32,000 bases of DNA from Pyrodictium delaneyi (GTDB lineage: Archaea > Thermoproteota > Thermoprotei_A > Sulfolobales > Pyrodictiaceae). The notes beneath the pieces are model-generated. The model saw only the letters and a list, made by a program, of their open reading frames with translations. It was not told the origin of the DNA and made no database searches. This document shows positions 5,727 through 22,059 of the stretch, piece after piece. The translations under genes and the position numbers were made by a program. The stretch lies in NCBI RefSeq assembly GCF_001412615.1, contig NZ_CP013011.1, positions 54,931 through 86,930 of the forward strand. Reading direction: 5' to 3'. Within the stretch, counting starts at the first letter, position 1, and each line of letters opens with the position of its first letter.

Positions 5727-5728
5727 AC

Positions 5729-6190: not shown

Positions 6191-6280
6191 CCCTGGATAA
6201 CCTCCACCTTCTCACATACCTAAAGCCATGGAGAAGCATGTCATCTATGATCCCAGGTATGGGTTTTAAGAAGTAAGGCA

Positions 6281-7744: not shown

Positions 7745-7820
7745 TGGAGCCGCCGCCGGGATTCGAACCCGGGACCTCCGCCTTACCAGGGCGGCGCTCT
7801 GCCGGCTGAGCTACGGCGGC
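7745..7820 (-). tRNA. tRNA-Thr(GGU), intron-less, CCA encoded; integration target
   Basis: GCCGCCG-TA-GCTC-AGCCGGCA-GAGC-G-CCGCC-CTGGTAA-GGCGG-AGGTC-CCGGG-TTCGAAT-CCCGG-CGGCGGC-T-CCA. This is a perfect 76-nt cloverleaf. Confidence 0.9.
7776..7820. repeat. attL core (45 bp, equals nt 1-45 of tRNA-Thr)
   Basis: CTCCGCCTTACCAGGGCGGCGCTCTGCCGGCTGAGCTACGGCGGC, identical base for base to 22015-22059. The flanking bases differ (c/g on the left, g/a on the right). Confidence 0.95.
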
Positions 7821-8039
7821 GCTCCGGGGCGCCAGTGATACTATTACCTCGACTAAGTCTCTTGCGGTCAGAACTGAAAGCAGCTTGTCGCAGAGCGAGG
7901 CGCTGACGTTCCTCTTCCCGTTCGCTATCATGTTCGCGTAGGCGTTGCTTATCCCCAGCTCCTTCGGCTTAACCCCCCGAGTCTTCCACGCATAGAGAAA
8001 CAATGCCCTAGAGAGCTCGGGGCCCAGGATATCACACAT
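7776..8039 (-). CDS. integrase N-terminal fragment Int(N), HTH-like
   Basis: ATG at 8039, then 73 codons plus the 15 att-core codons (AAVAQPAERRPGKAE). In the integrated state the frame runs on through the tRNA to a stop at 7692 (track ORF 7692..8039). KELGISNAYANMIANGKRNVS looks like a helix-turn-helix. Confidence 0.7.
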
Positions 8040-8152
8040 GGACAGGTTACATCACCAAGAACCAGGGGCACGAGGAGTTGCATATTAGTGTTATATCAGA
8101 AGGCTTGAAGACTAGTACCGCCCCGGAGCCTATCTAGCACGGTGCGGAGAGG

Positions 8153-8707
8153 GTGCGGCCCGAGCCCGTGTATGCTGCTGTGCTGCTCCTGGGCCTGGCT
8201 CTGGGCTTTGCTGCTGGCCAGTTCACGGCACAGCCCAAGGAGATAGTGCGCGAGACCGTGCTAACGACCACCGTCACCGAGACCGTTACCGAGACGGTTA
8301 CAGTCACGCCGCCCAAACCGAGGATAGAGTGCAGGCCGCTACGGGTGCTCTACAGCAACACCAGCTTAACGCTTGGTGTCTACCTTGTAGAGGAGAAGAG
8401 CAATGTGAGCGGAATAAGCCTACCAACGATTAAGAAGAAGAGAGATGTTATCAGGCTGAGCTTTGAAGGTGGCGGCGAGGGCCAGAGGCTACACATCCAC
8501 ATAGACGCCTACCCCTCGCAGCTAAGGTGGCTGAGCATAGAGCTCTACAACCCAGCCGACCTGCTCGCCTACGTGGCTATGCCCAAGAGCAAGGACATAG
8601 TATTCAGCATACCCTACCCCGACAACTACACCCTAGTCATAGAGCCACAGAGCACAGTAAAGCTCTACAACGTCACAGTGTGGATAGAAGAGTGTCAGCA
8701 ACAATAG
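8153..8707 (+). CDS. membrane-anchored/secreted glycoprotein with Thr/Val-rich stalk
   Basis: GTG start. The N-terminal hydrophobic segment VYAAVLLLGLALGFAAGQFTAQ is followed by TTTVTETVTETVTVTPP. Four N-x-S/T sequons are present (NTS, NVS, NYT, NVT). Confidence 0.65.
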   Translation: MRPEPVYAAVLLLGLALGFAAGQFTAQPKEIVRETVLTTTVTETVTETVTVTPPKPRIECRPLRVLYSNTSLTLGVYLVEEKSNVSGISLPTIKKKRDVIRLSFEGGGEGQRLHIHIDAYPSQLRWLSIELYNPADLLAYVAMPKSKDIVFSIPYPDNYTLVIEPQSTVKLYNVTVWIEECQQQ

Positions 8708-8799
8708 CGATGTATGCCCACCCCCAGCCCAGCTTTTTACATCAACCCATCCCCCTCATTCCCCCATGCCATATACCCGCACTTTTTCGGAGACAAGCC

Positions 8800-8970
8800 A
8801 TGAGCTGTGAGCGGGAAACCGTACTGAAGCTATTAGTGAAGCTCCGTCGAGAGATAAGAGCACTTGACATAGATGAACAAGCTAAAGCGAAGGTTCTCGA
8901 AAAGATCAGAGCCTATGAGCTTGAGCTTGAGGAGCTGCTGGCCGAGGAGCCCGTGTTCTCTAGGAGCTGA
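8800..8970 (+). CDS. small coiled-coil protein (56 aa)
   Basis: The ATG at 8800 lies within track ORF 8527..8970, whose upstream part is a Pro/His-rich shadow. The protein reads MSCERETVLKLLVKLRREIRALDIDEQAKAKVLEKIRAYELELEELL. Its 3' end overlaps the convergent gene by 58 nt. Confidence 0.4.
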   Translation: MSCERETVLKLLVKLRREIRALDIDEQAKAKVLEKIRAYELELEELLAEEPVFSRS

Positions 8971-9266
8971 TACATGGCTCTAAGCAGGTCAGCTATCTTT
9001 TTGCCCTTCTCGGTCAGCTTGACGCATGTTACCTCTTTCTTCTTGCGCGGGTCGTAGCAGACACCACGCTCAACTAGGCCTAGATCCTCTAGGTGCCTAT
9101 AAGCATCATAGAATGTGCCCGAGCCAAGCTCTACTTGTAGCTCGTACTGTGGGATCTCATCCTTGCCGCCTTCTATGAAAGCACGTAGGAATTTCTCGAT
9201 GCTCTTAGCCTTGAAGATTATGAGCCCCACTTCCTTTTCCCGAATCCAGAGAGGGGGTGTATGCAA
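8913..9266 (-). CDS. winged-helix DNA-binding protein
   Basis: GSGTFYDAYRHLEDLGLVERGVCYDPRKKKEVTCVKLTEKGKKIADLL reads as recognition helix plus wing. The start is uncertain: TTG 9266 or an in-frame GTG 12 codons downstream. Confidence 0.6.
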   Translation of the reverse strand: MHTPPLWIREKEVGLIIFKAKSIEKFLRAFIEGGKDEIPQYELQVELGSGTFYDAYRHLEDLGLVERGVCYDPRKKKEVTCVKLTEKGKKIADLLRAMYQLLENTGSSASSSSSSSS

Positions 9267-9296
9267 ATTTCAGCTTTTTTCGTGGTAGTAGTCTGA

Positions 9297-9689
9297 CTAC
9301 CAGTCTCCCGCGCCCGCTCTCTCCTCTACTCTCTGCGTTTTGGCTAAACTAAGAGCATGTTCTAACAAGCTTTCTTTGAGCTCTCCATCCTTTAGAAGTC
9401 GGAGTAAAAGGATTCTAAGCAGCTCTAGCTCCTGGTAGAGATCTGGTCTTGCACGTTCTAGTTGCTCAAAGAACTTATTCACGCGTTCAAGTAGTGTCTC
9501 CCCGACTGGGGTCTTTAACCCACAATTAGGACATGTTGCGCGTTTTGCCGCTCCTCTATAACACCATGTATAGCCGCAGTGTTTACAGACCACCCATGTG
9601 CCTGGACACATTCCGTTACTATGCCCGCTGGCGTGGTTGGTGGTCAGACTACTACCACGAAAACCGCGCATTCCCGCTCCCGTTTTCAT
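9297..9689 (-). CDS. zinc-ribbon protein with C-terminal helical domain
   Basis: CKHCGYTWCYRGAAKRATCPNCG has the C-x2-C-x14-C-x2-C pattern. I trimmed track ORF 9297..9887 to ATG 9689 because its first 66 codons overlap the divergent RHH gene and its promoter. Confidence 0.6.
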   Translation of the reverse strand: MKTGAGMRGFRGSSLTTNHASGHSNGMCPGTWVVCKHCGYTWCYRGAAKRATCPNCGLKTPVGETLLERVNKFFEQLERARPDLYQELELLRILLLRLLKDGELKESLLEHALSLAKTQRVEERAGAGDW

Positions 9690-9756
9690 CTCTTTGCTGG
9701 CCTCTTTTTTCGGTTTCTGGATTCGGAGAAGGGCAATAAGCTTATATCTGATGCAA

Positions 9757-9774
9757 TCCGACTCTAGAATCGGA
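9757..9774. promoter_or_regulatory. near-palindromic operator candidate TCCGAcTCTAGAaTCGGA
   Basis: An 18-bp inverted repeat with one mismatched pair, centred on TCTAGA. It lies between a TATA-like CTTATAT (9741-9747) and the RHH start. A third half-site, ATTCGGA, lies at 9721-9727. Confidence 0.45.
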
Positions 9775-9788
9775 GCCCAGAGCCCGAG

Positions 9789-9986
9789 GTGAGAGGTGTG
9801 CCCCGACCCAAGATTGGAAGGCGTGTAACCGTCTCTCTCCCGCCCGAACTCTACGAGAAGATCGAGAACTACCGAAAGAAGGAGCATCTAACAGAGATGA
9901 GCGAGGCAATACGTCGCCTGCTCTACAAGGCTATTGAGATCGAAGAGGAGAGGGCTCGAGCGGTAGCTGCGGCAACTACTGCCTAG
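9789..9986 (+). CDS. ribbon-helix-helix (CopG/Arc-like) DNA-binding protein
   Basis: GRRVTVSLPPELYEKIENYRKKEHLTEMSEAIRRLLYKAI reads as beta strand, helix, helix. An alternative start is GTG 9798, preceded by GAGGTG. Confidence 0.75.
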   Translation: MRGVPRPKIGRRVTVSLPPELYEKIENYRKKEHLTEMSEAIRRLLYKAIEIEEERARAVAAATTA

Positions 9987-9993
9987 GGGGTGG

Positions 9994-10218
9994 ATGGGGA
10001 TGGTGCGGTTCACCTACGAGAGCCTCATCGACTACGTGTTCACGAAGATGAATAAGGCGATGGAGCTGCTGGACGAGGCTATGCAGGCGCTCTGGTGTCG
10101 CGGCAAGAGCGTAGACGAGTGCCTCAAGGGCATCGACAAGGCGTACAGCCTCATCGAGGACGCCAAGCTCGAGCTCAGCGAGGCAATATCAGAGATACTG
10201 GTCGTAATGGTGGGATGA
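9994..10218 (+). CDS. small helical hypothetical protein (74 aa)
   Basis: Track ORF with an ATG start, packed between two RHH genes. I recognise no motif. Confidence 0.5.
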   Translation: MGMVRFTYESLIDYVFTKMNKAMELLDEAMQALWCRGKSVDECLKGIDKAYSLIEDAKLELSEAISEILVVMVG

Positions 10219-10392
10219 ATGCGGGTCGTGACGTTCAAGGTGGATGAGGACTTCCTCGAAAAGCTAGACAGCTTCGCCCGCTTGAAGGGCGTGACCAGGA
10301 GCGAGGTCATCAGGAAGGCGTTGGAGCTGTACCTGAGGCTAGAGGATTGGAAGGTGCGCCCCGAGCCGAAGATAGTGAGGCTGCTGAGCTAG
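10219..10392 (+). CDS. second ribbon-helix-helix protein (57 aa, below ORF-track cutoff)
   Basis: Translated by hand: MRVVTFKVDEDFLEKLDSFARLKGVTRSEVIRKALELYLRLEDWKVRPEPKIVRLLS. The ATG directly abuts the upstream TGA (tgaatg). Confidence 0.7.
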   Translation: MRVVTFKVDEDFLEKLDSFARLKGVTRSEVIRKALELYLRLEDWKVRPEPKIVRLLS

Positions 10393-10404
10393 GGTGGCAC
10401 AGCA

Positions 10405-10911
10405 GTGCACCATATCTGCCTCTTCATAGTCGAGGCAGACTCTAGGGAAGAGGCTGAGGAGCTGGCGCTGTGTGCCTGGACGGGGGACACGGCCTACTGC
10501 GCTCCGAGGTGGTGGCCGCCGCCCGTCAGGGTGCTCTGCGGCGTCAAGTGGGACTATGCCACTACAGTAGGCAAGCTCAAGCTGTACGAGCGCCAGCTCA
10601 TAGAGGGCGGCGTCCCGCCGAGCTGCGCCCGCCGCATCATGGAGCGGCTGCCCAGGTGCCCCCACGAGTGGGACAGGGACGACGTCACCGTGGCCTGCCT
10701 GGACTTCCCTGCGAGGGTGTCAGACCTGGGCATAGACGCGGCCTACGCGATAGCAGCCGCGTTCAACGGCATGGGCGACATCTGCCTCAACATCCTCTAC
10801 AGGGAAGACACGGCAATCATCTACAGCAGCGGCCTGTGGAAGCTCCGCAAACTGCTAAACACCAGGAGCCACGACAAGCTATGGCTAGTCATAGTAGACG
10901 CCCACGAGTAG
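10405..10911 (+). CDS. hypothetical protein (168 aa)
   Basis: GTG start 13 nt after the RHH stop. I preferred it over the overlapping Arg/Pro-rich frame 10470..10919 and the antisense ORF 10339..10665 because of its balanced amino-acid composition. Confidence 0.55.
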   Translation: MHHICLFIVEADSREEAEELALCAWTGDTAYCAPRWWPPPVRVLCGVKWDYATTVGKLKLYERQLIEGGVPPSCARRIMERLPRCPHEWDRDDVTVACLDFPARVSDLGIDAAYAIAAAFNGMGDICLNILYREDTAIIYSSGLWKLRKLLNTRSHDKLWLVIVDAHE

Positions 10912-10915
10912 AGGG

Positions 10916-11218
10916 GTGACACCCGTGGCGGCTGAGCGTCTCCTGGCGTGGCTGGACAAGAACTCTGACAGGCTGCTGCTGGTGGGGGTGCTCTGGCTCG
11001 CCGCCGTCATGACGCTACAGCTGGCGCTCACAGCGCTTGGGCACAAGACCATCGAGGACGTGGCCAGGGAAGAGGTGCGGGAATGGCTGGTGACGCATAA
11101 CATCACCGTGGTGGTGCAGCAGCCGAGGACCGTCGAGCTGCCAGAGAACCTGTTCTACCTGCTGGTGTTTGCGCTACTCTTCATGCCACTAGTAGGGGCA
11201 ATACTCCGAGACAGGTGA
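10916..11218 (+). CDS. small membrane protein (2 TM)
   Basis: Hydrophobic segments LLLVGVLWLAAVMTLQLALTAL and LFYLLVFALLFMPLVGAIL. Confidence 0.55.
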   Translation: MTPVAAERLLAWLDKNSDRLLLVGVLWLAAVMTLQLALTALGHKTIEDVAREEVREWLVTHNITVVVQQPRTVELPENLFYLLVFALLFMPLVGAILRDR

Positions 11219-11224
11219 TACGCC

Positions 11225-11758
11225 GTGGCGCTGGACGCTAGGCAGCTCAAGGCCCGGTACCAGCAGAAGTGGCGTATCGCTGCAAGGCGGGAGCTTGCTG
11301 TGCTGAATCTGCTGAACATCCTGCTGCCGGACGGCTACGTGGCTATAGCGGCTGGGCTCGGCACGGGTACGACGGACTTCATCGACCGGAGCTATGGGAG
11401 CCCGCTGGACGCGTTCGACCTGGTGGTGCTCCGGGGCATGGACGCTGTGGCGTTCATAGACGTTACGGGGTTCTGGAGCGAGCAGGCCGCCAGGACGGTA
11501 AACGGCGGCAAGGAGCTCTGCGTGGGCGCGTGGAAGCTCTGGAAGGCCCAGCGCTTCGGCCTGCTCGACCGCGCCTGGATAGTCCACGTCGCCGACAAGC
11601 GCGTCAGCCTACGCTGGCTCCCCCTAGCAGCCCTCGAGGCCGAGAAGCACATGGCACGCCTAGTCCACGGCGAGCGCCCATACTACTGCCTACCCCAGCA
11701 GAAGTGGCGCGACACAAGCGCGTTCATCCGCTGGCTCACTGCCCAGGCCCACGCCTAG
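11225..11758 (+). CDS. hypothetical protein (177 aa), possible nuclease-like fold (weak)
   Basis: I preferred it over the Arg-rich shadow frame 11269..11859. The pattern ERELAVL...LDAFDLVV...AFIDVTG...VGAWK is only loosely PD-(D/E)xK-like. Confidence 0.5.
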   Translation: MALDARQLKARYQQKWRIAARRELAVLNLLNILLPDGYVAIAAGLGTGTTDFIDRSYGSPLDAFDLVVLRGMDAVAFIDVTGFWSEQAARTVNGGKELCVGAWKLWKAQRFGLLDRAWIVHVADKRVSLRWLPLAALEAEKHMARLVHGERPYYCLPQQKWRDTSAFIRWLTAQAHA

Positions 11759-11787
11759 CCCTCTTTCTCCCCGCATACTCCCTTCAA

Positions 11788-11816
11788 CACACGTACACAT
11801 GGGGGTGGTACGTGTG
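11788..11816. other. 9-bp inverted repeat CACACGTAC-N11-GTACGTGTG (hairpin or operator)
   Basis: A perfect inverted repeat in the 131-bp gap between the 177-aa ORF and the wHTH gene. Confidence 0.4.
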
Positions 11817-11889
11817 CCCGGGCGTTGTGGCTTCACAGCTGTCACGCGCCGGGAACTGAAGAAGCTAGAGAAGACGGGGGTGGCCGAAG

Positions 11890-12162
11890 ATGCGCTTTGT
11901 GGATAAGATTGGTGTGCTGCTTGAGCTCGCGGAGAGGAGCGATGGCTGCATCGAGCAGCGAGAGCTGGCGCATGAGCTGGAGAAGCGTGGACTCAACCCG
12001 GTGACTGCTAAGAGCAGTGCTAGCCGGCTCGTTAACAAGCTACTGTCCGCCGGGCTGGCCGTGGAGTGTTCGCCAAGCCCCAGGGGCTCCAAGCGCATAT
12101 ACGTAGAGCCTGACATCTTGCGCACACTCATCCAAGTATGCAAGCTATGCAAGGAAGTCTAA
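11890..12162 (+). CDS. winged-helix (MarR-like) DNA-binding protein
   Basis: IEQRELAHELEKRGLNPVTAKSSASRLVNKLLSAGLAVECSPSPRGSKRIYV reads as HTH plus wing. Confidence 0.65.
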   Translation: MRFVDKIGVLLELAERSDGCIEQRELAHELEKRGLNPVTAKSSASRLVNKLLSAGLAVECSPSPRGSKRIYVEPDILRTLIQVCKLCKEV

Positions 12163-12176
12163 CAGGGTGGCCGGCA

Positions 12177-12740
12177 ATGGGTAGGCATGTGTTGTACTCT
12201 ATATTCTACCGCTGTGGTGATGGCCGGGAGCGGCTGCGTTGTGTGGACGAGGCGGGGTTCCGGCGGGCGCTGGCTGGTATCGCTGAGGCTGGCTGCCGGG
12301 TGGAGTTCATCCACGACGACGTGCTGCCGCGCGAGCCATGGCTCGCCGACTACGTGCTCGCGCTGCTACACTATGCTGGTAGGCCGCTGAGGCTCTACCA
12401 GGTGGTGAGGCTGCTGAGCGTCTTCGCGATGCTGGCGGGGCTCGAGGACGAGCTAGAGGTCTATGACACCGGCAAGGGCCCCTGGAGCACCGAGGTAGAG
12501 ACCACGGTGTACGAACTGGTGTACACCGGGTACCTGGAGTCCACGAAGCGGGGCTACGCGCTCACCGAGGCCAAGGGCGTCGACGAGGCACGCTGCGCGG
12601 CGGCGGTGATAGAGGCCTGGAGCAGCGACGAAGCCAAACTCCTCAAACGCCTAGCCGAGAAAACCAGGCGGATGAACAGGGCCCAGTTCAACGCGTTCAT
12701 AGAGAAACTACGGCCAGTGAGGGCGGCCACCCATGTATGA
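12177..12740 (+). CDS. hypothetical protein (187 aa)
   Basis: Track ORF 12138..12740 trimmed to ATG 12177, which lies after the upstream stop at 12162. The C-terminal half (GPWSTEVETTVYELVYTGYLESTKRGYALT) looks winged-helix-like. Confidence 0.5.
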   Translation: MGRHVLYSIFYRCGDGRERLRCVDEAGFRRALAGIAEAGCRVEFIHDDVLPREPWLADYVLALLHYAGRPLRLYQVVRLLSVFAMLAGLEDELEVYDTGKGPWSTEVETTVYELVYTGYLESTKRGYALTEAKGVDEARCAAAVIEAWSSDEAKLLKRLAEKTRRMNRAQFNAFIEKLRPVRAATHV

Positions 12741-12885
12741 GCTTGACCCCGAGGCCATGGAGATGGCGGTGTACTGGCTCTTCGACCACGAGCTCTGGGA
12801 GCTGCTCAGCGACATAGAAGCCGCCAAGCGCGACGCAGAATGGCTCAAGAAAATCCTCAGAAAGAGGGTGGCCGGGGATGGCTAG
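12733..12885 (+). CDS. small helical protein (50 aa, below cutoff)
   Basis: Translated by hand: MYELDPEAMEMAVYWLFDHELWELLSDIEAAKRDAEWLKKILRKRVAGDG. The ATG overlaps the upstream stop (atgtatga). Confidence 0.4.
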   Translation: MYELDPEAMEMAVYWLFDHELWELLSDIEAAKRDAEWLKKILRKRVAGDG

Positions 12886-13078
12886 TCGTCTTGCACGTTT
12901 CTTGGGGCGTGTCCTCAGGCCCCTGGAGCTCCTTGGGGAGATAGAGCGCCGGGCCCGCTGCATACGCTGGGAGCAGGAGTGCCGTTTCTACGGCAAGAAC
13001 TGCCTCGAGTATAAGCTCACATGCCACGATACAAAACCGCTGGGCCGGCTCCTGAGGGGGCTGCTCCGCAGAGGCTAG
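12878..13078 (+). CDS. small Cys-containing basic protein (66 aa)
   Basis: Its start overlaps the previous stop (ATGGCTAG). It carries four Cys in CIRWEQECRFYGKNCLEYKLTC. I preferred it over the antisense ORFs 12697..12963 and 12857..13114. Confidence 0.4.
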   Translation: MASRLARFLGRVLRPLELLGEIERRARCIRWEQECRFYGKNCLEYKLTCHDTKPLGRLLRGLLRRG

Positions 13079-13098
13079 AGTATATGTATATGTATATA

Positions 13099-14010
13099 CT
13101 ATATGTAGCCCCACTCGCGGGCGATGTCCTCGAGCTCCAGCTCTTCCACCGCTTCTTTATCGTCGCTCTCGGCTATCTCCTCTAGCTCCTCTGCCGCCTT
13201 CTCCGCGAGCTCCTCTAGCTCCTTCTGTATCTTCTTGGTGCCCGCCTCTACGTATTTGTCGCGCATCCTCTTGTAGTCCAGGTATATCTCGTCCGGCAGG
13301 ACTGCCATGAACCTGTACTCCCAGAGCGGCTCGGGCATCTTCCGGCGGTAGAAGAGCCACTCGAAGTCCTCGCTGTCGACTATGTAGCCCCTCGTCTTGC
13401 TTATCTTGACGAAGCACTTCTCGTGTGCCTCTGCCAGCTCCCTGTACGTCTTGCCCCGGTTGGCTTCTATCAGCCTGCGGCACTCGGGGATGTCCCGGCG
13501 GGGTTTCACGTTCTCGACGCTGACGAGATCCACGAGGCTCAGCGACTCCCTTATGCCCTTGGCGAGCTTCCCGTAGCTGGTCGCCGTGAATATCATCGTG
13601 GAGACGTGGGTACGTATCACCTCTAGGTGCTCGACCACGGCCATCACGAACTTGGACTTGTAGCGGCCGCGGAACAGCCAGGCGCCAGCGTCGTCCCATA
13701 TCGCGAGGGGTATCCTCTTGTGGTGGTCGACCAGCTCCTTGAAGACCCGGACGAACTCGGTCGGGCTGTAGAAGATGTACTTCTTCGCCGTGTCCCAGTC
13801 CCTGTAGACGCCCAGCAGGAGCTTGATAGCCAGCACGGACTTGCCTATCCCGCGCTTGAAGATGGCGTTGGGGTACGCGAATATCCCCCAGAGCAGCCCG
13901 TAGTCGTTCACGTAGCTCTCCCATATAACCTCTAGGTGCGGCATCTTCGCCGTATGCCTGTTTATGAACTCCTGCAGTGTTAGCTGTTTCTTGGCCTTCG
14001 CCAGGCTCAT
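13099..14010 (-). CDS. P-loop NTPase with acidic coiled-coil tail
   Basis: Walker A-like FKRGIGKS (aa 51-58, KGGxGK[ST]-like), Walker B PLAIWDDAG (aa 101-109), and a possible motif C MIFTATS. The C-terminus is rich in E/K. The overlapping frame 13157..13924 is an Arg-rich shadow. Confidence 0.75.
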   Translation of the reverse strand: MSLAKAKKQLTLQEFINRHTAKMPHLEVIWESYVNDYGLLWGIFAYPNAIFKRGIGKSVLAIKLLLGVYRDWDTAKKYIFYSPTEFVRVFKELVDHHKRIPLAIWDDAGAWLFRGRYKSKFVMAVVEHLEVIRTHVSTMIFTATSYGKLAKGIRESLSLVDLVSVENVKPRRDIPECRRLIEANRGKTYRELAEAHEKCFVKISKTRGYIVDSEDFEWLFYRRKMPEPLWEYRFMAVLPDEIYLDYKRMRDKYVEAGTKKIQKELEELAEKAAEELEEIAESDDKEAVEELELEDIAREWGYI

Positions 14011-14033
14011 TCTCCCAGCCCTACATAGCCGCC

Positions 14034-14420
14034 TTATTCTTCGCTCTCTTCGCCGTATATGATGCGCTTCACAGGCTTCATCATGATTGGCGTCTGCGCC
14101 TGGCCCCTCGCAGCCCTCATCACGCTTATAATCTCCTTCAAGCGGCGGCGCCTGCGGCTAGCACGGAGTATCAGCAGGTTCTCGGTCATGCTCCTCAGTA
14201 TGGTGGGCTGCTGCCAGCCCATGTGCTGGCGGAGCATCTCGTCCACAGCCAGCAGCATCGCTATGCTCCGTATCTCGCCGTCCTTCAGGTCGCTCAGAGT
14301 GTACTTTGCTAGGCCCTCTGGCTCGACAAGCCGCTCAACCACGTAGTTCATAGCGCGGAACGGGTCGGGGCCCTCTCCGCCGCCCTTCCTCGCCTTCTGA
14401 ATCTTATCCAAGAGCCTCAT
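14034..14420 (-). CDS. hypothetical protein (128 aa)
   Basis: Track ORF with an ATG start that overlaps the upstream stop (ATGA). It contains a basic stretch, RASRRRRRLKE. Confidence 0.6.
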   Translation of the reverse strand: MRLLDKIQKARKGGGEGPDPFRAMNYVVERLVEPEGLAKYTLSDLKDGEIRSIAMLLAVDEMLRQHMGWQQPTILRSMTENLLILRASRRRRRLKEIISVMRAARGQAQTPIMMKPVKRIIYGEESEE

Positions 14421-14581
14421 GAGACATCCACCTGACGGGTAAGCCAGGTAACTGCGTATTTCGCTGTGAGTATCACCGTGATTGCGAGAGCGATAGTAAC
14501 ATCTTTCGTGAGTAGATAAGCCAGCATACCCATTGATGCTATAATCATCATAATCGCCAAAACTGCTAGAGTGCGGAACAT
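14417..14581 (-). CDS. small 2-TM membrane protein (54 aa, below cutoff)
   Basis: Translated by hand: MFRTLAVLAIMMIIASMGMLAYLLTKDVTIALAITVILTAKYAVTWLTRQVDVS. It fills the only gap in the operon, sitting 5 nt after the upstream stop, and its own stop overlaps the next ATG. Confidence 0.55.
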   Translation of the reverse strand: MFRTLAVLAIMMIIASMGMLAYLLTKDVTIALAITVILTAKYAVTWLTRQVDVS

Positions 14582-14586
14582 GACTC

Positions 14587-15261
14587 TCACCCTGGCGTGT
14601 AGTTGCCGGGCGGCGGAAGCTCGTAGAGCGGCTTGCTCGGCAGCGTCACCTTGATGTCTATCGGCTTGGCTCCGATTTGGACTGGAACGCCCATGGCTGG
14701 CAGCACCACCAGGATGACTAGCACCGCGAGGCCCAGCCCCAGGAACATGCCGTACATCAGCAGGCTGTAGTCCTGTGCAACTACTCTTGCCACCTTGCTG
14801 AGCAGCTTGCTGTTGATTACCGCATAGCTCAACTCTGGTGGAAGCTGCCGCGCCTTAGCCCGCAGCGCCTCGCCGTCTACCTCGACTTCGAGGATGTTGC
14901 CCTCGCGGTCGGCTATCCACATGGGGACTAGGCGCTTGACCAGGTAGCGGCGTATCTCCACGTACTGCGGCCTAATCCCCCTCACGAGCCACGACTTCCC
15001 GCTCTTGTCCGAGACCGCCCAGCCGTCGCTCGTAATCCTCACAGTGTGCAGGACATAGTTGTTCTCGTCCACCTGCTCAAGCACCCAGCCATGCCCGACC
15101 ACTTTCTTCGCCGCCGTTATGCCCTGCTTCTCGGCCTCTTGCTCAGCCTCGGCTGTCTTCAGCCTGACTTCCCGCCTCATGCTCCAGAGCAGCAGCGCCA
15201 GGACTCCTATCGCGAGCGTGAGGGCGAATCCGGCTAGGCCTAGGATGGCCTCGAACTGCAT
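14587..15261 (-). CDS. bitopic membrane protein (N- and C-terminal TM)
   Basis: Hydrophobic segments ILGLAGFALTLAIGVLALLLW and LLMYGMFLGLGLAVLVILVVLPAMG flank a soluble middle domain. Confidence 0.7.
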   Translation of the reverse strand: MQFEAILGLAGFALTLAIGVLALLLWSMRREVRLKTAEAEQEAEKQGITAAKKVVGHGWVLEQVDENNYVLHTVRITSDGWAVSDKSGKSWLVRGIRPQYVEIRRYLVKRLVPMWIADREGNILEVEVDGEALRAKARQLPPELSYAVINSKLLSKVARVVAQDYSLLMYGMFLGLGLAVLVILVVLPAMGVPVQIGAKPIDIKVTLPSKPLYELPPPGNYTPG

Positions 15262-15271
15262 CCTCTCACCC

Positions 15272-15976
15272 CTAGACGGGCTTGATTATGTCTACTATGA
15301 GCTTCACGATTTCGGCCACGGTCTTGAACAGCTTCTCGAACATCCGGTAGATACGCTCGAAGAAATCGAGCCACATGGTTATGAAGCCGAGCAGCGGGAA
15401 CAGCGACCGCTCCCTCGCGGCGCGGTTAGCGCTGTCCACGAACGTTGCTAGTATCATCGTCAGCACTATCCAGGGTATCCACGGTATGATGTTCACGCCC
15501 CAGGCCTTTATGGTTGCAAACGCCCACACAACTATCTCGACGAACGACGTTAGTGCTGCTATCAGGGCGGCGCCTATGTTGAAGATGAGCCAGCCTAGGT
15601 TGAATATCAACTGTAGGATGTAGCTGCCGAACACGTCCAGGAACTTGACCACGGCGCCGATTATCGGCACGGCTTCTATCTTGTCCTTTATCCAATTCCA
15701 GAGGGATTTGGCCCCCTCTTGCACCTTGCAGCCTATGTAGCCGAATACGTCCCAGCTCAGCCAGCTGTCTGGCGGCTGGCAGCCAGTAGTGTTCGTGAAG
15801 TTGAAGCTCTGCACGAACTCGCGGAACGGTGTTGTATTATCGCTGTATATCGGGTTCTGGGCACCGGTAACATTGTAGAGTATCTCTATCGGGTTGGGCG
15901 GAGTAGTCATGTTCCAAGTAGTGGTCTGCCCCACTAGCAGCAAAGAAACAATGAGCAGGGGCAGCAGCCGGCGCAC
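15272..15976 (-). CDS. polytopic membrane glycoprotein with signal peptide
   Basis: MRRLLPLLIVSLLLVG-QTTT, five sequons in the first 65 aa (NMT, NVT, NTT, NFT, NTT), then at least 4 hydrophobic helices. Confidence 0.7.
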   Translation of the reverse strand: MRRLLPLLIVSLLLVGQTTTWNMTTPPNPIEILYNVTGAQNPIYSDNTTPFREFVQSFNFTNTTGCQPPDSWLSWDVFGYIGCKVQEGAKSLWNWIKDKIEAVPIIGAVVKFLDVFGSYILQLIFNLGWLIFNIGAALIAALTSFVEIVVWAFATIKAWGVNIIPWIPWIVLTMILATFVDSANRAARERSLFPLLGFITMWLDFFERIYRMFEKLFKTVAEIVKLIVDIIKPV

Positions 15977-15986
15977 GGTGCACCAC

Positions 15987-16268
15987 CTAGGCGGGCTTCT
16001 TCTCGACTAGGTATATCTCGACGGGTATCGGGCTGTACGCCTTCACCCAGTTCTTGTAGAGCTGGAACGCCTCGTCCCTGGCGATTCCCTCTAGTTCTAC
16101 TTCGGCCCTCTTCGCGTGGTCGCCGTAGACTTCCTTCGAGGCCGAGATGAACTGGAGTGTGCGGTGTGCTGCGAAGAGCCAGATTTTGAGTCGGCCGCGG
16201 ATTGCTATCGTTTTCCTACGCAGCGTTTTGCCGTCACCGTTGTATATCTTGACGATTATCTTGGGCAT
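15987..16268 (-). CDS. small basic soluble protein (93 aa)
   Basis: Track ORF 15987..16529 trimmed to ATG 16268 (MPKIIVKIYNGDGKTLRRK...). The upstream 87 codons are a His/Arg/Gly/Pro-rich shadow that overlaps the next gene. Confidence 0.6.
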   Translation of the reverse strand: MPKIIVKIYNGDGKTLRRKTIAIRGRLKIWLFAAHRTLQFISASKEVYGDHAKRAEVELEGIARDEAFQLYKNWVKAYSPIPVEIYLVEKKPA

Positions 16269-16285
16269 GCCCGTCACCCCGAGCT

Positions 16286-16522
16286 CTAGATTATCGCCTT
16301 CCCGAGGCGGTAGAGCAGCCACCCCGCTATCACCCCGAGAACCACCATCCAGACCGTGTTGGCGTCTATGCTCAGCGTGTAGTGGTGCTCCGGAGTCAAG
16401 GTTACCGTCGTGGTTACGGTTACGGTGGTCATGTTCGTGGTGTTGGTGTCGGTCTGGGCGAGGGACAGGAGAGCCACCACCGGGGCTATCCGGGGGATAC
16501 GTAGGCGCCACAGCTGCAACAC
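16286..16522 (-). CDS. small secreted/TM-anchored protein (78 aa), distant member of the AQT family
   Basis: An in-frame GTG at 16522 gives MLQLWRLRIPRIAPVVALLSLA-QTDTNTTNMTTVTVTTTVTLTP...VWMVVLGVIAGWLLYRL. The track ORF extends to 16609, but that extra part lies in the promoter region. Confidence 0.6.
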   Translation of the reverse strand: MLQLWRLRIPRIAPVVALLSLAQTDTNTTNMTTVTVTTTVTLTPEHHYTLSIDANTVWMVVLGVIAGWLLYRLGKAII

Positions 16523-16572
16523 CCAGCACCGATTGTAACTAGGAGCCCCGGCTCTGACTAAACTATTGTGGC

Positions 16573-16600
16573 GTGATGCACCTACATCACAGTGATGTAG
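16573..16600. promoter_or_regulatory. three GTGATG(C/T)A half-sites forming two overlapping palindromes in a divergent promoter
   Basis: GTGATGCA-CC-TACATCAC-A-GTGATGTAG. CTACATCAC-A-GTGATGTAG (16582-16600) is a perfect 9+1+9 palindrome. It lies in the 151-bp gap between the minus operon (start 16522) and the plus operon (start 16674). Confidence 0.5.
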
Positions 16601-16673
16601 CAACAACACTTAGCAGCCCATATCTAATTCCTGCTGCAACAACTGTTACACGACAGAGCGTGAGGTGTGAGAG

Positions 16674-16919
16674 GTGCGCATCCTATCCCGGCTCAAGGAG
16701 AAGATAGACGAGAAGAAGATAGCCAGGAAGATAGCCGAGCACCCCGAGGCAGTGGCGGCTCTAACCCTCGTGGCTCAGACAACTACAAACGACACCGCAA
16801 CCACGACAACAACTGTAGACCTAAGCCCGATGGTCAGCATAATCAGCAGCGTCATCCCGCTATTCGTGCTAGTAGCAGTCATAAAGATACTCTTCAAGAG
16901 CTTCAAGGACGTAGCATAG
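16674..16919 (+). CDS. small signal-peptide/TM protein, paralog 1 (81 aa)
   Basis: GTG start preceded by GAGGTG. Charged N-terminal helix ILSRLKEKIDEKK, then AVAALTLVA-QTTTNDTATTTTT, then C-terminal TM VIPLFVLVAVIKILFKSFKDVA. Confidence 0.7.
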   Translation: MRILSRLKEKIDEKKIARKIAEHPEAVAALTLVAQTTTNDTATTTTTVDLSPMVSIISSVIPLFVLVAVIKILFKSFKDVA

Positions 16920-16934
16920 CGGGGCTGAGCAGTA

Positions 16935-17141
16935 ATGGCCAGCATCAACCGAATCAAGGAGAGAGTAAAGAGCCTGGCCAGCAGGCTGGGCCCGCCTGCC
17001 GCCGGCGCCGCCGTCCTAGTCGCGCAGACCGACAGCATGACAACCACAATATCTCTGGTAAACAGTGTCATCCCGGTGCTAGTGCTGGTGATGGTTCTGA
17101 AGTTACTGTTCTCCAGCTTCAAGGAGATAAGCAAGGACTAG
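16935..17141 (+). CDS. small signal-peptide/TM protein, paralog 2 (68 aa)
   Basis: MASINRIKERVKSLASR...AAVLVA-QTDSMTTT...VIPVLVLVMVLKLLFSSFKEISKD. It is collinear with paralog 1. Confidence 0.7.
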   Translation: MASINRIKERVKSLASRLGPPAAGAAVLVAQTDSMTTTISLVNSVIPVLVLVMVLKLLFSSFKEISKD

Positions 17142-17143
17142 GG

Positions 17144-17362
17144 GTGGGACACGTGTTCAAGCAGCTCAAGGAGAGACTGAGGGCGGGTTTTCGCAGGGCG
17201 GCCCCAGCCGCCGCAGCGGCCCTAGCACTGGCGCAGACGAGCACTTCAACATCTGGCTACGACGCAGTCGGCACGGTAGTCACTATGCTCATAGCCGTGG
17301 CGCTGCCAGCGCTGATACTCGTCAGCATCGTAAAGATGATTATGAACCATATACGCGCCTAG
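17144..17362 (+). CDS. small signal-peptide/TM protein, paralog 3 (72 aa)
   Basis: The start is GTG 17144 or GTG 17153. (MGH)VFKQLKERLRAGFRR...AAALALA-QTSTSTS...LPALILVSIVKMIMNHIRA. It forms the C-terminal end of track ORF 16667..17362, the rest of which is a shadow. Confidence 0.65.
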   Translation: MGHVFKQLKERLRAGFRRAAPAAAAALALAQTSTSTSGYDAVGTVVTMLIAVALPALILVSIVKMIMNHIRA

Positions 17363-17544
17363 CGCCACTCGTAGCAGCGATAGCGTTCACGGCGCAGAGC
17401 GCAGTAGAGACAGTCATAGACGTAAACCAGCAGGTCGCGGCGCTCATAGGGGCGCTCACGGTCTTCCTGCCGGTCGCCATACCTGCCATCATACTGCTGA
17501 CTCTGCTGAAGATACTCTTCAGCGCCATGAAGCCAACGAGGTGA
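17359..17544 (+). pseudogene. fourth paralog with no start codon in its own frame
   Basis: Frame 1 reads LAPLVAAIAFTA-QSAVETVIDVNQQVAALIGALTVFLPVAIPAIILLTLLKILFSAMKPTR*. That frame is open from 17131 but contains no ATG, GTG or TTG before 17527. Confidence 0.45.
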
Positions 17545-17549
17545 CCCGC

Positions 17550-17657
17550 ATGGGGTTTTTCGAGCCCCTTCTCCTCGGCGCCCTGGTCTACATGGTTATC
17601 CTGTTCTCGATGGTGATGCGGGTTGGCGGTGAGGATGAGGAGTCTGGCGGTGGCTAG
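17550..17657 (+). CDS. possible 35-aa single-TM peptide
   Basis: Translated by hand: MGFFEPLLLGALVYMVILFSMVMRVGGEDEESGGG. It overlaps the start of the glycoprotein gene by 23 nt. It is short, so the call is weak. Confidence 0.3.
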   Translation: MGFFEPLLLGALVYMVILFSMVMRVGGEDEESGGG

Positions 17658-20091: not shown

Positions 20092-20094
20092 CGC

Positions 20095-20099
20095 TTTTT
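20095..20099 (+). terminator. oligo-T (T5) immediately after the glycoprotein stop
   Basis: tag-cgc-TTTTT-g. Archaeal terminators are typically oligo-T tracts, but a single T5 is weak evidence. Confidence 0.3.
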
Positions 20100-20139
20100 G
20101 CACTATCCGCTGCTCTCTACACTAGAGGGTGCACCAGAT

Positions 20140-20427
20140 ATGGCAAGGAATGTCTATCTGGGGCGCGACTGCCTAAGCCCGCCATGCGTAGATGACCGTG
20201 GCCGGAGAGGCCTAGACCGCATCTCGGAAGTCAAGGACATAGCCGACCGCATCATAGAGGACTGTGAGGCTGGACGCATATCCTATAGAACAGCAATGGC
20301 AAGGATGAATCTCCTAGAGCTCGTGGTCAGCAGGGACAGCAGCTTCTCGGTGGAGCAGCGGCTGAAGGCCCGCCGGCTCATAGACCGCAAGAGAGAGGAG
20401 CTCATGGAGAAGTGTGGCGGTGAGTAA
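20140..20427 (+). CDS. hypothetical soluble protein (95 aa)
   Basis: Track ORF 20098..20427 (TTG start) trimmed to ATG 20140 (MARNVYLGRDCLSPPC...). Confidence 0.5.
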   Translation: MARNVYLGRDCLSPPCVDDRGRRGLDRISEVKDIADRIIEDCEAGRISYRTAMARMNLLELVVSRDSSFSVEQRLKARRLIDRKREELMEKCGGE

Positions 20428-20430
20428 GCC

Positions 20431-21981: not shown

Positions 21982-22014
21982 GCGCCTTGCGCGATATAAC
22001 AGGTCAAGAACTTG

Positions 22015-22059
22015 CTCCGCCTTACCAGGGCGGCGCTCTGCCGGCTGAGCTACGGCGGC
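22015..22059. repeat. attR core (orphan 5' half of tRNA-Thr)
   Basis: Identical to 7776-7820. On the minus strand it is followed by non-tRNA sequence (caagttcttgacc...). Confidence 0.95.

What the first reader, a model, noticed from the sequence alone, without database searches (positions are those of the whole stretch)
7776..8039. The integrase is partitioned by integration: Int(N) here joins in frame with Int(C) at 22014-21085 to give a 397-aa ORF
**Frame arithmetic.**
- On the minus strand, the ORF starting at ATG 8039 has a codon boundary exactly at 7820/7821.
- The 45-bp core is exactly 15 codons (AAVAQPAERRPGKAE).
- At the right-hand copy the next codon starts at 22014. From there, 33 nt (QVLDLLYRARR, no stop) lead in frame into ATG 21981 of the 298-aa recombinase ORF.
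- Recombination between the repeats would therefore recreate a single 397-aa ORF (73+15+11+298) with attP inside codons 74-88.

**Interpretation.** This is the hallmark of SSV-type archaeal integrases, whose int gene is split on integration. The att-encoded segment lies at about the same relative position as in SSV1 Int. The C-part motifs SGARIDEVL / KLRK / FYHSR / LAY follow the order I recall for SSV1 Int (SGVRLSEIL / KYFRK / FIQGR / HY). Int(C) keeps its own ATG and the whole catalytic domain, so a truncated enzyme could still be made from the provirus.
Basis: partly seen in the sequence, partly recalled or inferred. Interest (0 to 1): 0.75.

Follow-up and report, generated by a model that had tools for sequence, protein, structure and literature searches.

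The report
Virus integrase gene split by integration
A 14-kb virus-like element sits inside the threonine-tRNA gene of the archaeon Pyrodictium delaneyi, and inserting there cut the element's own integrase gene into two in-frame halves at its ends; this self-splitting is well known for archaeal "suicidal" integrases, so this is a new example of a known kind.

Summary
An exact 45-bp direct repeat (7776-7820 and 22015-22059) brackets a 14.2-kb GC-rich insertion. Joining 8039-7821, the core and 22014-21085 gives an open 397-aa ORF.

- The C part is a Phage_integr_3 (PF16795) tyrosine recombinase, with the R/K/R/R/Y residues invariant against SSV1, pTN3, pGE2 and TPV1 integrases.
- A second provirus in a metagenome has the same in-frame split. 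Both halves show equal dS (about 0.6) and dN/dS of about 0.2.
- Pyrodictium occultum has the same locus uninterrupted, which is the empty attB.
- Intact 430-aa integrases elsewhere carry a homologous N-terminal helix-turn-helix domain.

One correction is needed. The att is the 5' 45 nt of tRNA-Thr(GGT), read in the sense direction. That is the pTN3 layout, not the SSV1 layout (3' half, antisense). The rebuilt tRNA therefore lies behind int(N), while the native tRNA promoter now faces int(C).

The host is P. delaneyi. The element carries a fusellovirus-type DnaA-like ATPase and a nuclease.

No unsplit copy was found in any collection, so the joined gene is still inferred.

Verdict: a new member of a known kind, of modest interest.

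The parts
7745..7820 (-). Complete, reconstituted tRNA-Thr(GGT). Positions 1-45 are the att core and positions 46-76 are original host DNA.
   Evidence: ARAGORN. Rfam tRNA, 72.6 bits. 76/76 identical to the uninterrupted P. occultum tRNA.
7776..7820 (-). attL core (45 bp): acceptor-stem 5' strand, D arm and the whole anticodon stem-loop (CCGCC-CTGGTAA-GGCGG) plus 2 nt. It encodes Int codons 74-88.
   Evidence: Exact repeat. Translation AAVAQPAERRPGKAE.
7821..8039 (-). int(N): 73 codons encoding a five-helix helix-turn-helix domain. In the provirus the ORF reads on through the tRNA to a stop at 7692 (115 aa). It is not annotated in public records.
   Evidence: HTH_3 E 2e-4, below the Pfam cutoff. 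AF2 pLDDT 69-91 for residues 1-70. dN/dS 0.21 against L001. 16 family representatives. Absent from the protein collection.
8040..8097 (-). Putative int promoter and leader, conserved between two otherwise unrelated elements: TATA-like GATATAAC (8097-8090) and GGTGAT (8056-8051) ahead of ATG 8039.
   Evidence: The blastn match window/L001 extends to 8097. Sequences read. Promoter function is inferred.
7851..7867 (-). CCGCAAGAGACTTAGTC inside int(N) (codons T-A-R-D-L), 31-47 nt upstream of the tRNA. It resembles the native tRNA-Thr upstream box and is a candidate surrogate BRE/TATA.
   Evidence: Anchored upstream comparison. Function is inferred only.
7821..22014 (.). Body of the integrated element. 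The circular form would be 14,239 bp including one core copy.
   Evidence: Repeat spacing 14,239. GC shift. Absent from the P. occultum syntenic locus.
13099..14010 (-). DnaA-like AAA+ ATPase of the fusellovirus/guttavirus type (Pyrde_0084).
   Evidence: phrog_5484 E 1e-26. tblastn to APOV1, SSVs and APSV1 at about 30% identity. Accession.
11225..11758 (+). Viral/archaeal PD-(D/E)XK-type nuclease.
   Evidence: PF12187 E 3e-6, above the cutoff. phrog_9634 E 8e-22. Matches the SSV1 nuclease region.
21085..22014 (-). int(C): 11 linker codons (22014-21982) plus the 298-aa ORF from ATG 21981. It contains the core-binding region and the catalytic domain. Annotated publicly as Pyrde_0096, hypothetical protein / integrase.
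   Evidence: The linker shows 2 synonymous and 0 non-synonymous changes against L001.
22015..22059 (-). attR core: a duplicated 5' half of tRNA-Thr that keeps the native upstream region and now leads into int(C).
   Evidence: Not scored as a tRNA by Rfam.
22095..22110 (-). Native tRNA-Thr upstream box CCGTAAGGGATTTACC, a probable BRE/TATA. It is conserved at the same distance in P. occultum and in the host of L001.
   Evidence: Promoter function is inferred.
21942..22003 (-). Two exact 13-nt direct repeats CCTGTTATATCGC (22003-21991 and 21954-21942), 49 bp apart, on either side of ATG 21981. They may be protein-binding sites next to the core.
   Evidence: Invariant in three diverged sequences. 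Function unknown.

Best explanation
The interval 7821-22014 is a 14.2-kb provirus related to fuselloviruses and guttaviruses, integrated in the tRNA-Thr(GGT) gene of Pyrodictium delaneyi by its own SSV-type ("suicidal", type I) tyrosine integrase.

In the free circular genome, int is a single 397-aa gene with four parts:
- an N-terminal helix-turn-helix domain (residues 1-70);
- a linker encoded by attP (codons 74-88);
- a core-binding region;
- a PF16795 catalytic domain with R239, K274, R318, R340 and Y351.

attP is identical to tRNA positions 1-45 and is read in the tRNA sense direction. By analogy with SSV1 Int, strand exchange probably flanks the 7-nt anticodon loop, between the 5-bp stem arms that lie inside the core.

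Integration has four consequences:
- int(N) is left fused to a rebuilt, complete tRNA-Thr at the left end.
- int(C) ends up at the right end, behind the native tRNA promoter and a duplicated 5' tRNA half.
- The tRNA must now be transcribed from viral sequence, either the int promoter or a promoter-like box inside int(N).

Excision needs full-length Int from an episomal copy or a related superinfecting element, perhaps helped by Int(C).

Shown: the repeat, the frames, the domain and residues, the empty site, a second split provirus, and purifying selection on both halves. Inferred: the unsplit gene, the crossover position, the promoter usage and the excision route.
For: 1. Exact 45-bp repeat equal to the tRNA-Thr 5' half, with an open in-frame 397-aa join.
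2. PF16795 E 6e-19. PHROG 5127 integrase aligns residues 43-371. Catalytic residues are invariant across SSV1, pTN3, pGE2, TPV1, AvPV1 and L002.
3. Independent provirus L001 (9 kb). It shares only int and one small ORF with this element. It has a 49-bp repeat at the same tRNA, and its int(N) joins in frame.
4. Against L001, int(N) has dN/dS 0.21 and dS 0.63, and int(C) has dN/dS 0.24 and dS 0.60. The 11 linker codons upstream of ATG 21981 carry only synonymous changes.
5. Frame compensation. Where the tRNA 5' part is 47 nt, in the L022 int(N) and the L017 int(C), int(N) enters it in a different codon phase, so ...ERRPGKAE-QVLD... stays in frame.
6. Empty attB. P. occultum has L38e, an intact tRNA-Thr and MetE, collinear with the in-silico excised window.
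7. The N domain is homologous (34% identity, E 9e-11) to the N terminus of intact 430-aa PF00589 integrases. pTN3 Int, a contiguous gene on a plasmid, aligns from residue 44 across its own sense-strand tRNA-Leu 5'-half peptide.
8. The literature describes exactly this architecture and its consequences for pTN3-like integrases (PMC8371274, PMC5495485).
Against: - No contiguous (unsplit) close relative was found. The junction DNA pattern gave 0 hits in the metagenome and viral collections. Protein-based scans of IMG/VR gave nothing.
- All 16 representatives of the N-domain family in 1.84 billion proteins are short. The Thr and Val types read through a whole tRNA, which is the integrated state.
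- Identity to every characterised suicidal integrase is below 31%.
- The AF2 model is poor outside the N domain, with mean pLDDT 48.
- There are no expression or recombination data.
Confidence: 0.9

Rival explanations
1. The 73-codon HTH ORF is an independent Cro/CI-like regulator that merely abuts the att site. The 298-aa ORF starting at ATG 21981 is the complete integrase and stays intact on integration (the pNOB8, type II situation).
For: - Int(C) has its own conserved ATG, Met100, invariant in three sequences.
- The public annotation lists only the 298-aa protein as the integrase.
- An intact solo HTH ORF sits upstream of tRNA-Thr with no provirus nearby in L022, so the N part can persist on its own.
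- No unsplit gene has been seen.
Against: - The only open frame through the core is the one used on both sides.
- The 11 codons upstream of the ATG carry only synonymous changes.
- The frame is preserved when the tRNA segment is 2 nt longer.
- The PHROG integrase profile and pTN3 Int both align across the junction.
- The same N domain is covalently part of intact 430-aa integrases.
- A 298-aa product would lack the multimerisation part that SSV1 and SSV2 Int need for efficient recombination (PMC8371274).
Confidence: 0.05
2. The element is a trapped or domesticated fossil. The split is real but irreversible, and the retained int(N) now serves the host as the promoter or leader for tRNA-Thr, or as a regulator, rather than as half of a working integrase.
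For: - Identical element proteins occur in two P. delaneyi strains, under ALL... and OWJ... accessions.
- A solo int(N) (L022) and a 22-codon remnant (L011) are retained directly upstream of tRNA-Thr in other genomes.
- Suicidal integration removes the means of self-excision (PMC8371274).
Against: - The repeats are still exact.
- Neither half of int shows a frameshift or premature stop, and the element's long ORFs (up to 822 aa) remain open.
- dN/dS of about 0.2 on both halves across elements shows that the gene is maintained as a unit in the population.
- Published cases show rescue of such proviruses by related integrases (PMC8371274).
Confidence: 0.25
3. The repeat and the open joined frame are coincidental, for example a duplicated tRNA fragment unrelated to any recombination event.
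For: None beyond the fact that partial tRNA copies do occur in archaeal genomes.
Against: - The repeat is an exact 45 bp.
- The insertion is bounded precisely by the repeats relative to P. occultum.
- A second locus has the same design.
Confidence: 0.01

Closest known systems
pTN3-like suicidal integrases of Thermococcales (IntpTN3, TKV4)
   Same: - PF16795 catalytic domain.
- attP lies inside the int ORF.
- The att is the 5' half of a tRNA gene read in the sense direction: 41 bp identity with a minimal site of tRNA positions 2-44 in pTN3, against positions 1-45 here.
- The rebuilt tRNA is separated from its own promoter.
- int(C) lies behind the tRNA promoter with an in-frame start codon near its beginning (PMC8371274, PMC5495485).
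- The att peptides align: AGVAEPGQRRWTQDA in pTN3 against AAVAQPAERRPGKAE here.
   Different: - Only 24% identity over 65% of the protein, below the 30%/60% family criterion of PMC8371274.
- The pTN3-specific insertions are absent.
- The residue three positions before catalytic R318 is Ser rather than Ala.
- The host is a crenarchaeon (Pyrodictium), not a member of the Thermococcales.
- The target is tRNA-Thr, not tRNA-Leu.
- The N domain is a different HTH.
- The element is fusellovirus-like, not a pTN3-type plasmid or virus.
SSV1 integrase (D-335), Fuselloviridae
   Same: - The gene is split on integration into a tRNA gene.
- The att is 44-45 bp, at the same relative position in the protein: codons 64-78 of 335 against 74-88 of 397.
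- Same catalytic fold family and same motif order.
- The neighbouring gene set includes a DnaA-like ATPase and a nuclease.
   Different: - SSV1 int reads antisense through the 3' half of tRNA-Arg, so that tRNA keeps its own promoter.
- Identity is 26% over 42% of the protein only.
- The SSV1 N terminus is unrelated.
- SSV1 has KxxR where this protein has SxxR.
pT26-2 family suicidal integrases (pGE2 and pT26-2; TPV1 Int, whose family I did not check, is similar)
   Same: pGE2 Int is the best pairwise match: 30% identity over residues 102-374. It has a PF16795 domain, and the gene is split on integration.
   Different: - Their att peptides derive from tRNA 3' halves read antisense (GFEPAAS in pGE2, DLNPGH in TPV1).
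- Their N-terminal parts are unrelated.
- Their hosts are euryarchaea.
Intact 430-aa tyrosine integrases next to tRNA-Thr(GGT) in metagenome loci L004, L007 and L010
   Same: The N-terminal HTH domain and the following linker are homologous: 34% identity over residues 5-101, E 9e-11. They also lie at a tRNA-Thr(GGT) gene.
   Different: - They have a PF00589 catalytic domain.
- The gene lies outside the tRNA and stays whole on integration.
- Their proximity to tRNA-Thr is partly a search artefact, because one of the search patterns was the translation of the tRNA.

Membership tests
SSV-type / suicidal (type I) archaeal tyrosine integrases | Phage_integr_3 (PF16795) catalytic domain | tested here: met
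   E 6.4e-19, 68.9 bits against a cutoff of 27, residues 210-366.
SSV-type / suicidal (type I) archaeal tyrosine integrases | Catalytic signature R...K...xxR...Y (SSV1 type KxxR, pTN3 AxxR) | tested here: met
   R239, K274, R318(K319), R340 and Y351 are invariant in the 7-sequence alignment. The position three residues before R318 is Ser, as in TPV1.
SSV-type / suicidal (type I) archaeal tyrosine integrases | The recombination site lies inside the int ORF, so integration leaves int(N) and int(C) at opposite ends of the element | tested here: met
   The halves lie at opposite ends and join in frame through the 45-bp core. The same holds in L001. The insertion boundaries are confirmed by the empty site. 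The unsplit gene itself was not observed.
SSV-type / suicidal (type I) archaeal tyrosine integrases | An att of about 40-50 bp identical to part of a tRNA gene | tested here: met
   45 bp, equal to tRNA-Thr(GGT) positions 1-45. The range is taken from PMC8371274.
SSV-type / suicidal (type I) archaeal tyrosine integrases | Catalyses site-specific integration and excision | not testable with these tools
   Needs biochemistry or genetics.
pTN3-like integrase family | [quoted passage not shown] | tested here: met
   The core covers tRNA positions 1-45 in the sense direction. The native upstream flank stays with int(C).
pTN3-like integrase family | At least 30% identity over at least 60% of the protein to family members (criterion of PMC8371274) | tested here: not met
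   24% identity over residues 44-300 against pTN3 Int.
SSV family sensu stricto (Fuselloviridae integrases) | At least 30% identity over at least 60% of the protein to SSV integrases | tested here: not met
   26-29.5% identity over 42% of the query.
SSV family sensu stricto (Fuselloviridae integrases) | The att lies in the 3' half of the tRNA, read antisense by int | tested here: not met
   The SSV1 att is the reverse complement of a tRNA T-arm and 3' half. Here the att is the 5' half, read in the sense direction.
pNOB8-type (type II) integrases | The int gene remains intact after integration, and the catalytic domain is PF00589 | tested here: not met
   The domain is PF16795, not PF00589. The ORF continues upstream of ATG 21981 into the core under purifying selection.
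Fuselloviridae/Guttaviridae-like virus (the element as a whole) | DnaA-like ATPase and viral/archaeal nuclease core genes | tested here: met
   phrog_5484 E 1e-26, phrog_9634 E 8e-22, and PF12187.
Fuselloviridae/Guttaviridae-like virus (the element as a whole) | VP1/VP3-type major capsid protein and VP4-type end-filament protein | tested here: inconclusive
   Three tandem small hydrophobic paralogues (16674-17362) and an 822-aa secreted protein have no significant family hits.

The most novel reading that the evidence does not exclude
The last codons of int(N) (T-A-R-D-L, CCGCAAGAGACTTAGTC, window 7867-7851) double as a surrogate BRE/TATA promoter, mimicking the host's own tRNA-Thr upstream box (CCGTAAGGGATTTACC in Pyrodictium, GCGTAAGAGACTTAGCC in the host of L001).

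On this reading, integration into the 5' half does not silence a tRNA that is probably single-copy. Once the native promoter side is lost, the host depends on the viral fragment. That would explain why an intact solo int(N) (L022) and a 22-codon remnant holding exactly this box (L011) persist upstream of tRNA-Thr in genomes with no provirus nearby.

It would also mean that 5'-half-targeting suicidal integrases form a wider crenarchaeal family aimed at tRNA-Thr and tRNA-Val, and are not a pTN3 peculiarity.
Probability: 0.3. Interest if true: 0.6.

Novelty: new member of a known kind. Interest (0 to 1): 0.35.

Why it matters
- **Annotation.** It identifies a 14.2-kb provirus in Pyrodictium delaneyi that I could not find described in the searchable literature. 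It shows that the annotated "integrase" Pyrde_0096 is only the C-terminal half of a 397-aa gene, and that the N-terminal half is unannotated.
- **Distribution.** A 2021 review stated that integration into the 5' half of a tRNA gene by a self-splitting integrase was unique to pTN3-like enzymes of Thermococcales. This case shows it in a crenarchaeon, with a family of about 16 sequence clusters aimed at tRNA-Thr and tRNA-Val.
- **Biology.** It offers a natural system for asking how an essential tRNA stays expressed once cut off from its promoter, and how "suicidal" proviruses are rescued.

The basic mechanism is long established, so this does not change the field.

Tried and rejected
**Searches for an unsplit (episomal) int.** All were negative.
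- An exact junction DNA pattern in metagenome contigs and a core-plus-int(C) pattern in viral contigs gave 0 hits.
- Protein scans of IMG/VR with the joined protein and with two int(N) alignments gave 0 relatives. A first alignment was too diverse to use.
- Megablast of the whole element against INPHARED phages gave no match.

**Searches for the host genome.**
- The genome-contig scan returned only a distant Desulfurococcaceae MAG, not the source genome.
- Exact-product look-ups of two window ORFs failed.
- The host was finally identified through exact protein cluster look-up.

**Structure.**
- AF2 on a 3-sequence alignment gave mean pLDDT 48. Only the N domain is usable, so no fold search was run.

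**Ideas considered and set aside.**
- That the HTH ORF is a host gene upstream of the tRNA. The P. occultum empty site lacks it, so this is rejected.
- That the difference in orientation between L001 and the window reflects integrase-mediated inversion. The hosts are only about 65% identical in the flanks and differ in several genes, so ordinary rearrangement is enough.
- That the promoter-like box is general to the family. In the tRNA-Val type the equivalent box lies 48-66 nt upstream rather than 31-47 nt, so the idea remains speculative.

The bacterial sigma-70 promoter scanner was not used, because it does not apply to archaea.
Full report
**1. The observation**

The repeat finder reports one exact 45-nt direct repeat, at 7776-7820 and 22015-22059, spaced 14,239 bp apart. 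The bases just outside the repeat differ on both sides. ARAGORN and Rfam place a complete tRNA-Thr(GGT) at 7745/7748-7820 on the minus strand. The left copy is therefore tRNA positions 1-45: the acceptor-stem 5' strand, the D arm, the whole anticodon stem-loop, and 2 further nt.

The frame arithmetic is correct:
- 8039-7821 is 73 codons.
- The core is 15 codons, AAVAQPAERRPGKAE.
- 22014-21982 is 11 open codons, QVLDLLYRARR.
- These run into ATG 21981 of the 298-aa ORF, giving 397 aa with one terminal stop.

Only one of the three sense frames through the core is open. The other two contain TAG and TAA. Both halves use the open frame.

The interval between the repeats has GC 0.56-0.64, against 0.43-0.53 in the flanks.

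**2. It is an insertion, and the host is Pyrodictium delaneyi**

Exact protein look-ups place the window in P. delaneyi. The matching proteins are ALL00114-ALL00156 on a 2,023,836-bp contig. A second strain, with OWJ accessions, carries identical element proteins.

The syntenic locus of P. occultum reads L38e, then an uninterrupted tRNA-Thr(GGT), then MetE. I deleted 7821-22059 from the window in silico. The result aligns collinearly with the P. occultum locus, and the tRNA is 76/76 identical. This is an empty attB. It also shows that the helix-turn-helix ORF at 8039-7821 belongs to the inserted DNA and not to the host.

**3. The two halves are one integrase gene**

*Domain and residues.*
- The joined protein matches Pfam Phage_integr_3 (PF16795, "Archaeal phage integrase") at E 6e-19 over residues 210-366.
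- PHROG integrase family 5127 aligns residues 43-371, from inside int(N) to the catalytic domain.
- The best PDB hits are the three SSV1 integrase catalytic-domain entries. They are weak (E about 0.07) but align SGARIDEVL with SGVRLSE(I/V)L.
- In a MAFFT alignment with the SSV1, pTN3, pGE2, TPV1 and AvPV1 integrases and a Desulfurococcaceae Int(C), the invariant columns include G237, R239, K274, R318, K319, R340 and Y351. These are the catalytic R...K...xxR...Y set described for SSV-type enzymes (PMC8371274).

*A second, independent provirus.*
- The closest database protein (P0001, 79% identity) lies on a metagenome contig, L001.
- L001 carries a 9-kb element bracketed by a 49-bp repeat at the same tRNA-Thr.
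- Its int(N) is 73 codons, MCDILGPELS..., and joins in frame with its int(C) to give 399 aa.
- Apart from the integrase and one small ORF, the two elements share nothing. The integrase behaves as a mobile module.

*Selection acts on both halves alike.*

| Segment | dN/dS | dS |
|---|---|---|
| int(N) | 0.21 | 0.63 |
| int(C) | 0.24 | 0.60 |

The 11 linker codons upstream of ATG 21981 differ by two synonymous changes and no non-synonymous ones. They are therefore coding, which only makes sense if the ORF starts further upstream.

*The frame is preserved when the tRNA differs.*
- A third Int(C) (L017/P0002) sits behind a tRNA-Thr 5' part of 47 nt rather than 45 nt.
- An int(N) entering that same 47-nt tRNA variant (L022/P0003) does so one codon phase later. 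It reads RRSSAWLERRPGKAE instead of AAVAQPAERRPGKAE, so it leaves the core in the phase that continues QVLD....
- These two sequences come from different samples, so this is a consistency argument rather than a single reconstructed gene.

*The N domain is a true integrase domain.*
- It is a five-helix HTH. The Pfam HTH_3 match is below the cutoff, at E 2e-4. AF2 gives pLDDT 69-91 for residues 1-70, while the att-encoded segment is modelled as an unstructured linker at pLDDT about 30. That model comes from a shallow alignment and is poor elsewhere.
- Intact 430-aa PF00589 integrases in three metagenome loci carry a homologous N terminus, at 34% identity over residues 5-101 and E 9e-11.
- pTN3 Int, which is a contiguous gene on a replicating plasmid, aligns from residue 44 through its own att peptide.

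**4.

In SSV1, the annotated integration site is codons 64-78 of 335. That is the same relative position as codons 74-88 of 397 here. However, the SSV1 site is the reverse complement of a tRNA 3' half.

Here int reads in the tRNA sense direction through the 5' half. pTN3 Int does the same with tRNA-Leu, where AGVAEPGQRRWTQDA occupies about residues 94-108.

[quoted passage not shown] It adds that the recombinant tRNA is then expressed from the integrase promoter, that int(C) can be transcribed from the tRNA promoter, and that int(C) often keeps an in-frame start codon (PMC8371274; see also PMC5495485, S2 Fig legend).

All of this applies here:
- The rebuilt tRNA-Thr lies directly behind int(N).
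- The native upstream region now precedes the duplicated 5' half and int(C). It includes a box, CCGTAAGGGATTTACC, that is conserved at the same distance in P. occultum and in the host of L001.
- Met100 is invariant.

This integrase is nevertheless not a pTN3 family member by the review's criterion:

| Comparison | Identity | Region of this protein |
|---|---|---|
| pTN3 Int | 24% | residues 44-300 |
| pGE2 Int (best match) | 30% | residues 102-374 |
| SSV1 Int | 26% | residues 116-280 |

**5. A wider family**

An exhaustive phmmer search with int(N) plus the core (88 aa) against 1.84 billion representatives gave 16 hits at E ≤ 1e-3. All are 90-213 aa long. Their sequences show the same HTH followed by a sense-strand translation of a whole tRNA:
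- tRNA-Thr(GGT) in five of them;
- tRNA-Val with anticodon GAC, TAC or CAC in eight.

These are int(N) fragments in the integrated state. Two further hits belong to the intact 430-aa type.

No unsplit member of the Thr or Val type was found in any collection. This is the main remaining gap.

**6. The element**

The element encodes:
- a DnaA-like AAA+ ATPase (phrog_5484 E 1e-26; best tblastn matches are Aeropyrum ovoid virus APOV1 and the SSVs);
- a viral/archaeal nuclease (PF12187; phrog_9634 E 8e-22);
- an RHH repressor and a winged-helix regulator;
- three tandem small hydrophobic paralogues;
- an 822-aa secreted protein with no detectable relatives.

The set is fusellovirus/guttavirus-like, but capsid homology could not be shown.

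A preprint on Aeropyrum globular virus 1 mentions a nuclease and an ATP-binding protein with homologues in "Pyrodictium sp." (10.1101/2021.04.21.440749). I found no paper describing this provirus.

In public records, int(C) is "hypothetical protein Pyrde_0096" or "integrase". The int(N) ORF is absent from the protein collection.

**7. Mechanism**

*Shown:*
- the architecture of the split gene;
- the empty site;
- the catalytic residues;
- purifying selection on both halves.

*Inferred from the SSV1 and pTN3 literature:*
- Full-length Int is made from the circular genome. Its upstream region is conserved, with TATA-like GATATAAC and GGTGAT ahead of ATG 8039.
- It recombines attP with tRNA-Thr positions 1-45. 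Strand exchange probably flanks the anticodon loop, CCGCC-CTGGTAA-GGCGG, which lies wholly inside the core.
- Integration destroys the gene.
- Excision needs Int from an episome or a relative, possibly assisted by Int(C) translated from Met100.

**8. A speculative extension**

The int(N) sequence 31-47 nt upstream of the rebuilt tRNA is CCGCAAGAGACTTAGTC. It resembles the native upstream box, matching 12 of 16 positions against the Pyrodictium box. The L001 int(N) and the native box of its own host match at 13 of 14 positions.

Two other genomes retain this part with no provirus nearby:
- L022 has an intact solo int(N).
- L011 has a frameshifted remnant of 22 codons.

This fits a virus-supplied tRNA promoter on which the host comes to depend. 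Against it, the motif also encodes the conserved LTA(K/R)DL helix. In the tRNA-Val type it lies further from the tRNA, at 48-66 nt. I rate this idea at about 0.3.

**9. Verdict**

The correction is that the topology is pTN3-like rather than SSV1-like. This is a new, unannotated member of a well-known class, in a new host lineage and with a distinctive N domain. Interest is modest.

Noticed in passing
window 21942-21954 and 21991-22003 (minus strand): Two exact copies of CCTGTTATATCGC lie 49 bp apart on either side of the int(C) ATG, starting 12 bp beyond the att core. Both copies are invariant in the window, L001 and L017, although nearby synonymous sites vary. They could be arm-type Int sites or regulator-binding sites.
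   Followed up: partly
window 7851-7867 compared with 22095-22110; L001 4153-4169; L018 about 3898-3913: The int(N) coding sequence CCGCAAGAGACTTAGTC, just upstream of the rebuilt tRNA, resembles the conserved native tRNA-Thr upstream box (CCGTAAGGGATTTACC or GCGTAAGAGACTTAGCC). It may be a surrogate promoter.
   Followed up: partly
L022 6001-6295: An intact int(N) ORF (72% identical to the window's) with its own AT-rich upstream region sits directly in front of tRNA-Thr. There is no provirus or int(C) within 6 kb upstream or 4.8 kb downstream (to the contig end). It is a solo int(N), either retained after loss of the element or separated from the rest by rearrangement.
   Followed up: partly
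L011 about 9998-10062: A remnant of 22 codons from the int(N) tail (KALLSTLTARDLMEVVAALTPG; the tblastn match through the core is 94% identical to the window) lies immediately upstream of an identical tRNA-Thr. It is out of frame with the tRNA. It looks like the fossil of an earlier integration.
   Followed up: partly
L004 252-1544, L007 9594-10886, L010 251-1543: Intact 430-aa PF00589 integrases lie about 130 bp downstream of tRNA-Thr(GGT) genes. Their N-terminal 100 residues are homologous to int(N) plus the linker. The same DNA-binding module is thus used by both self-splitting and ordinary integrases.
   Followed up: partly
window 16674-16919, 16935-17141 and about 17150-17362 (plus strand): Three tandem small paralogous ORFs each have an (A)LxLAQT motif, a Thr-rich stretch and a C-terminal transmembrane helix. 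They lie just upstream of the 822-aa secreted protein (17623-20091). They are candidate virion proteins with no database family.
   Followed up: partly
window 6285-6405 (minus strand): A tRNA-like 3' end (T arm and acceptor, 69% identical to the tRNA-Pro T-arm segment) is not called by ARAGORN and scores below Rfam thresholds. A tRNA with an intron sits at the syntenic position in L022, so this may be an intron-containing tRNA gene that the tools miss.
   Followed up: partly
window 1215-1371 (minus strand): ARAGORN calls tRNA-Pro(CGG) at 1216-1305, while Rfam extends the match to 1371. The boundaries disagree, probably because of an intron.
   Followed up: no
window 2913-7820 compared with L001 368-4246: The host block Lsm-TGT-PAC2-PUA is syntenic between the two hosts. 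The segment holding the small 124/131-aa gene and tRNA-Thr is inverted relative to that block. As a result the provirus points the opposite way in the two genomes.
   Followed up: no
window 8153-8707 and 8913-9266: Two element ORFs contain low-complexity stretches: TVTETVTETVTVT in a membrane-anchored 184-aa protein, and a run of nine Ser at the C terminus of the winged-helix regulator.
   Followed up: no
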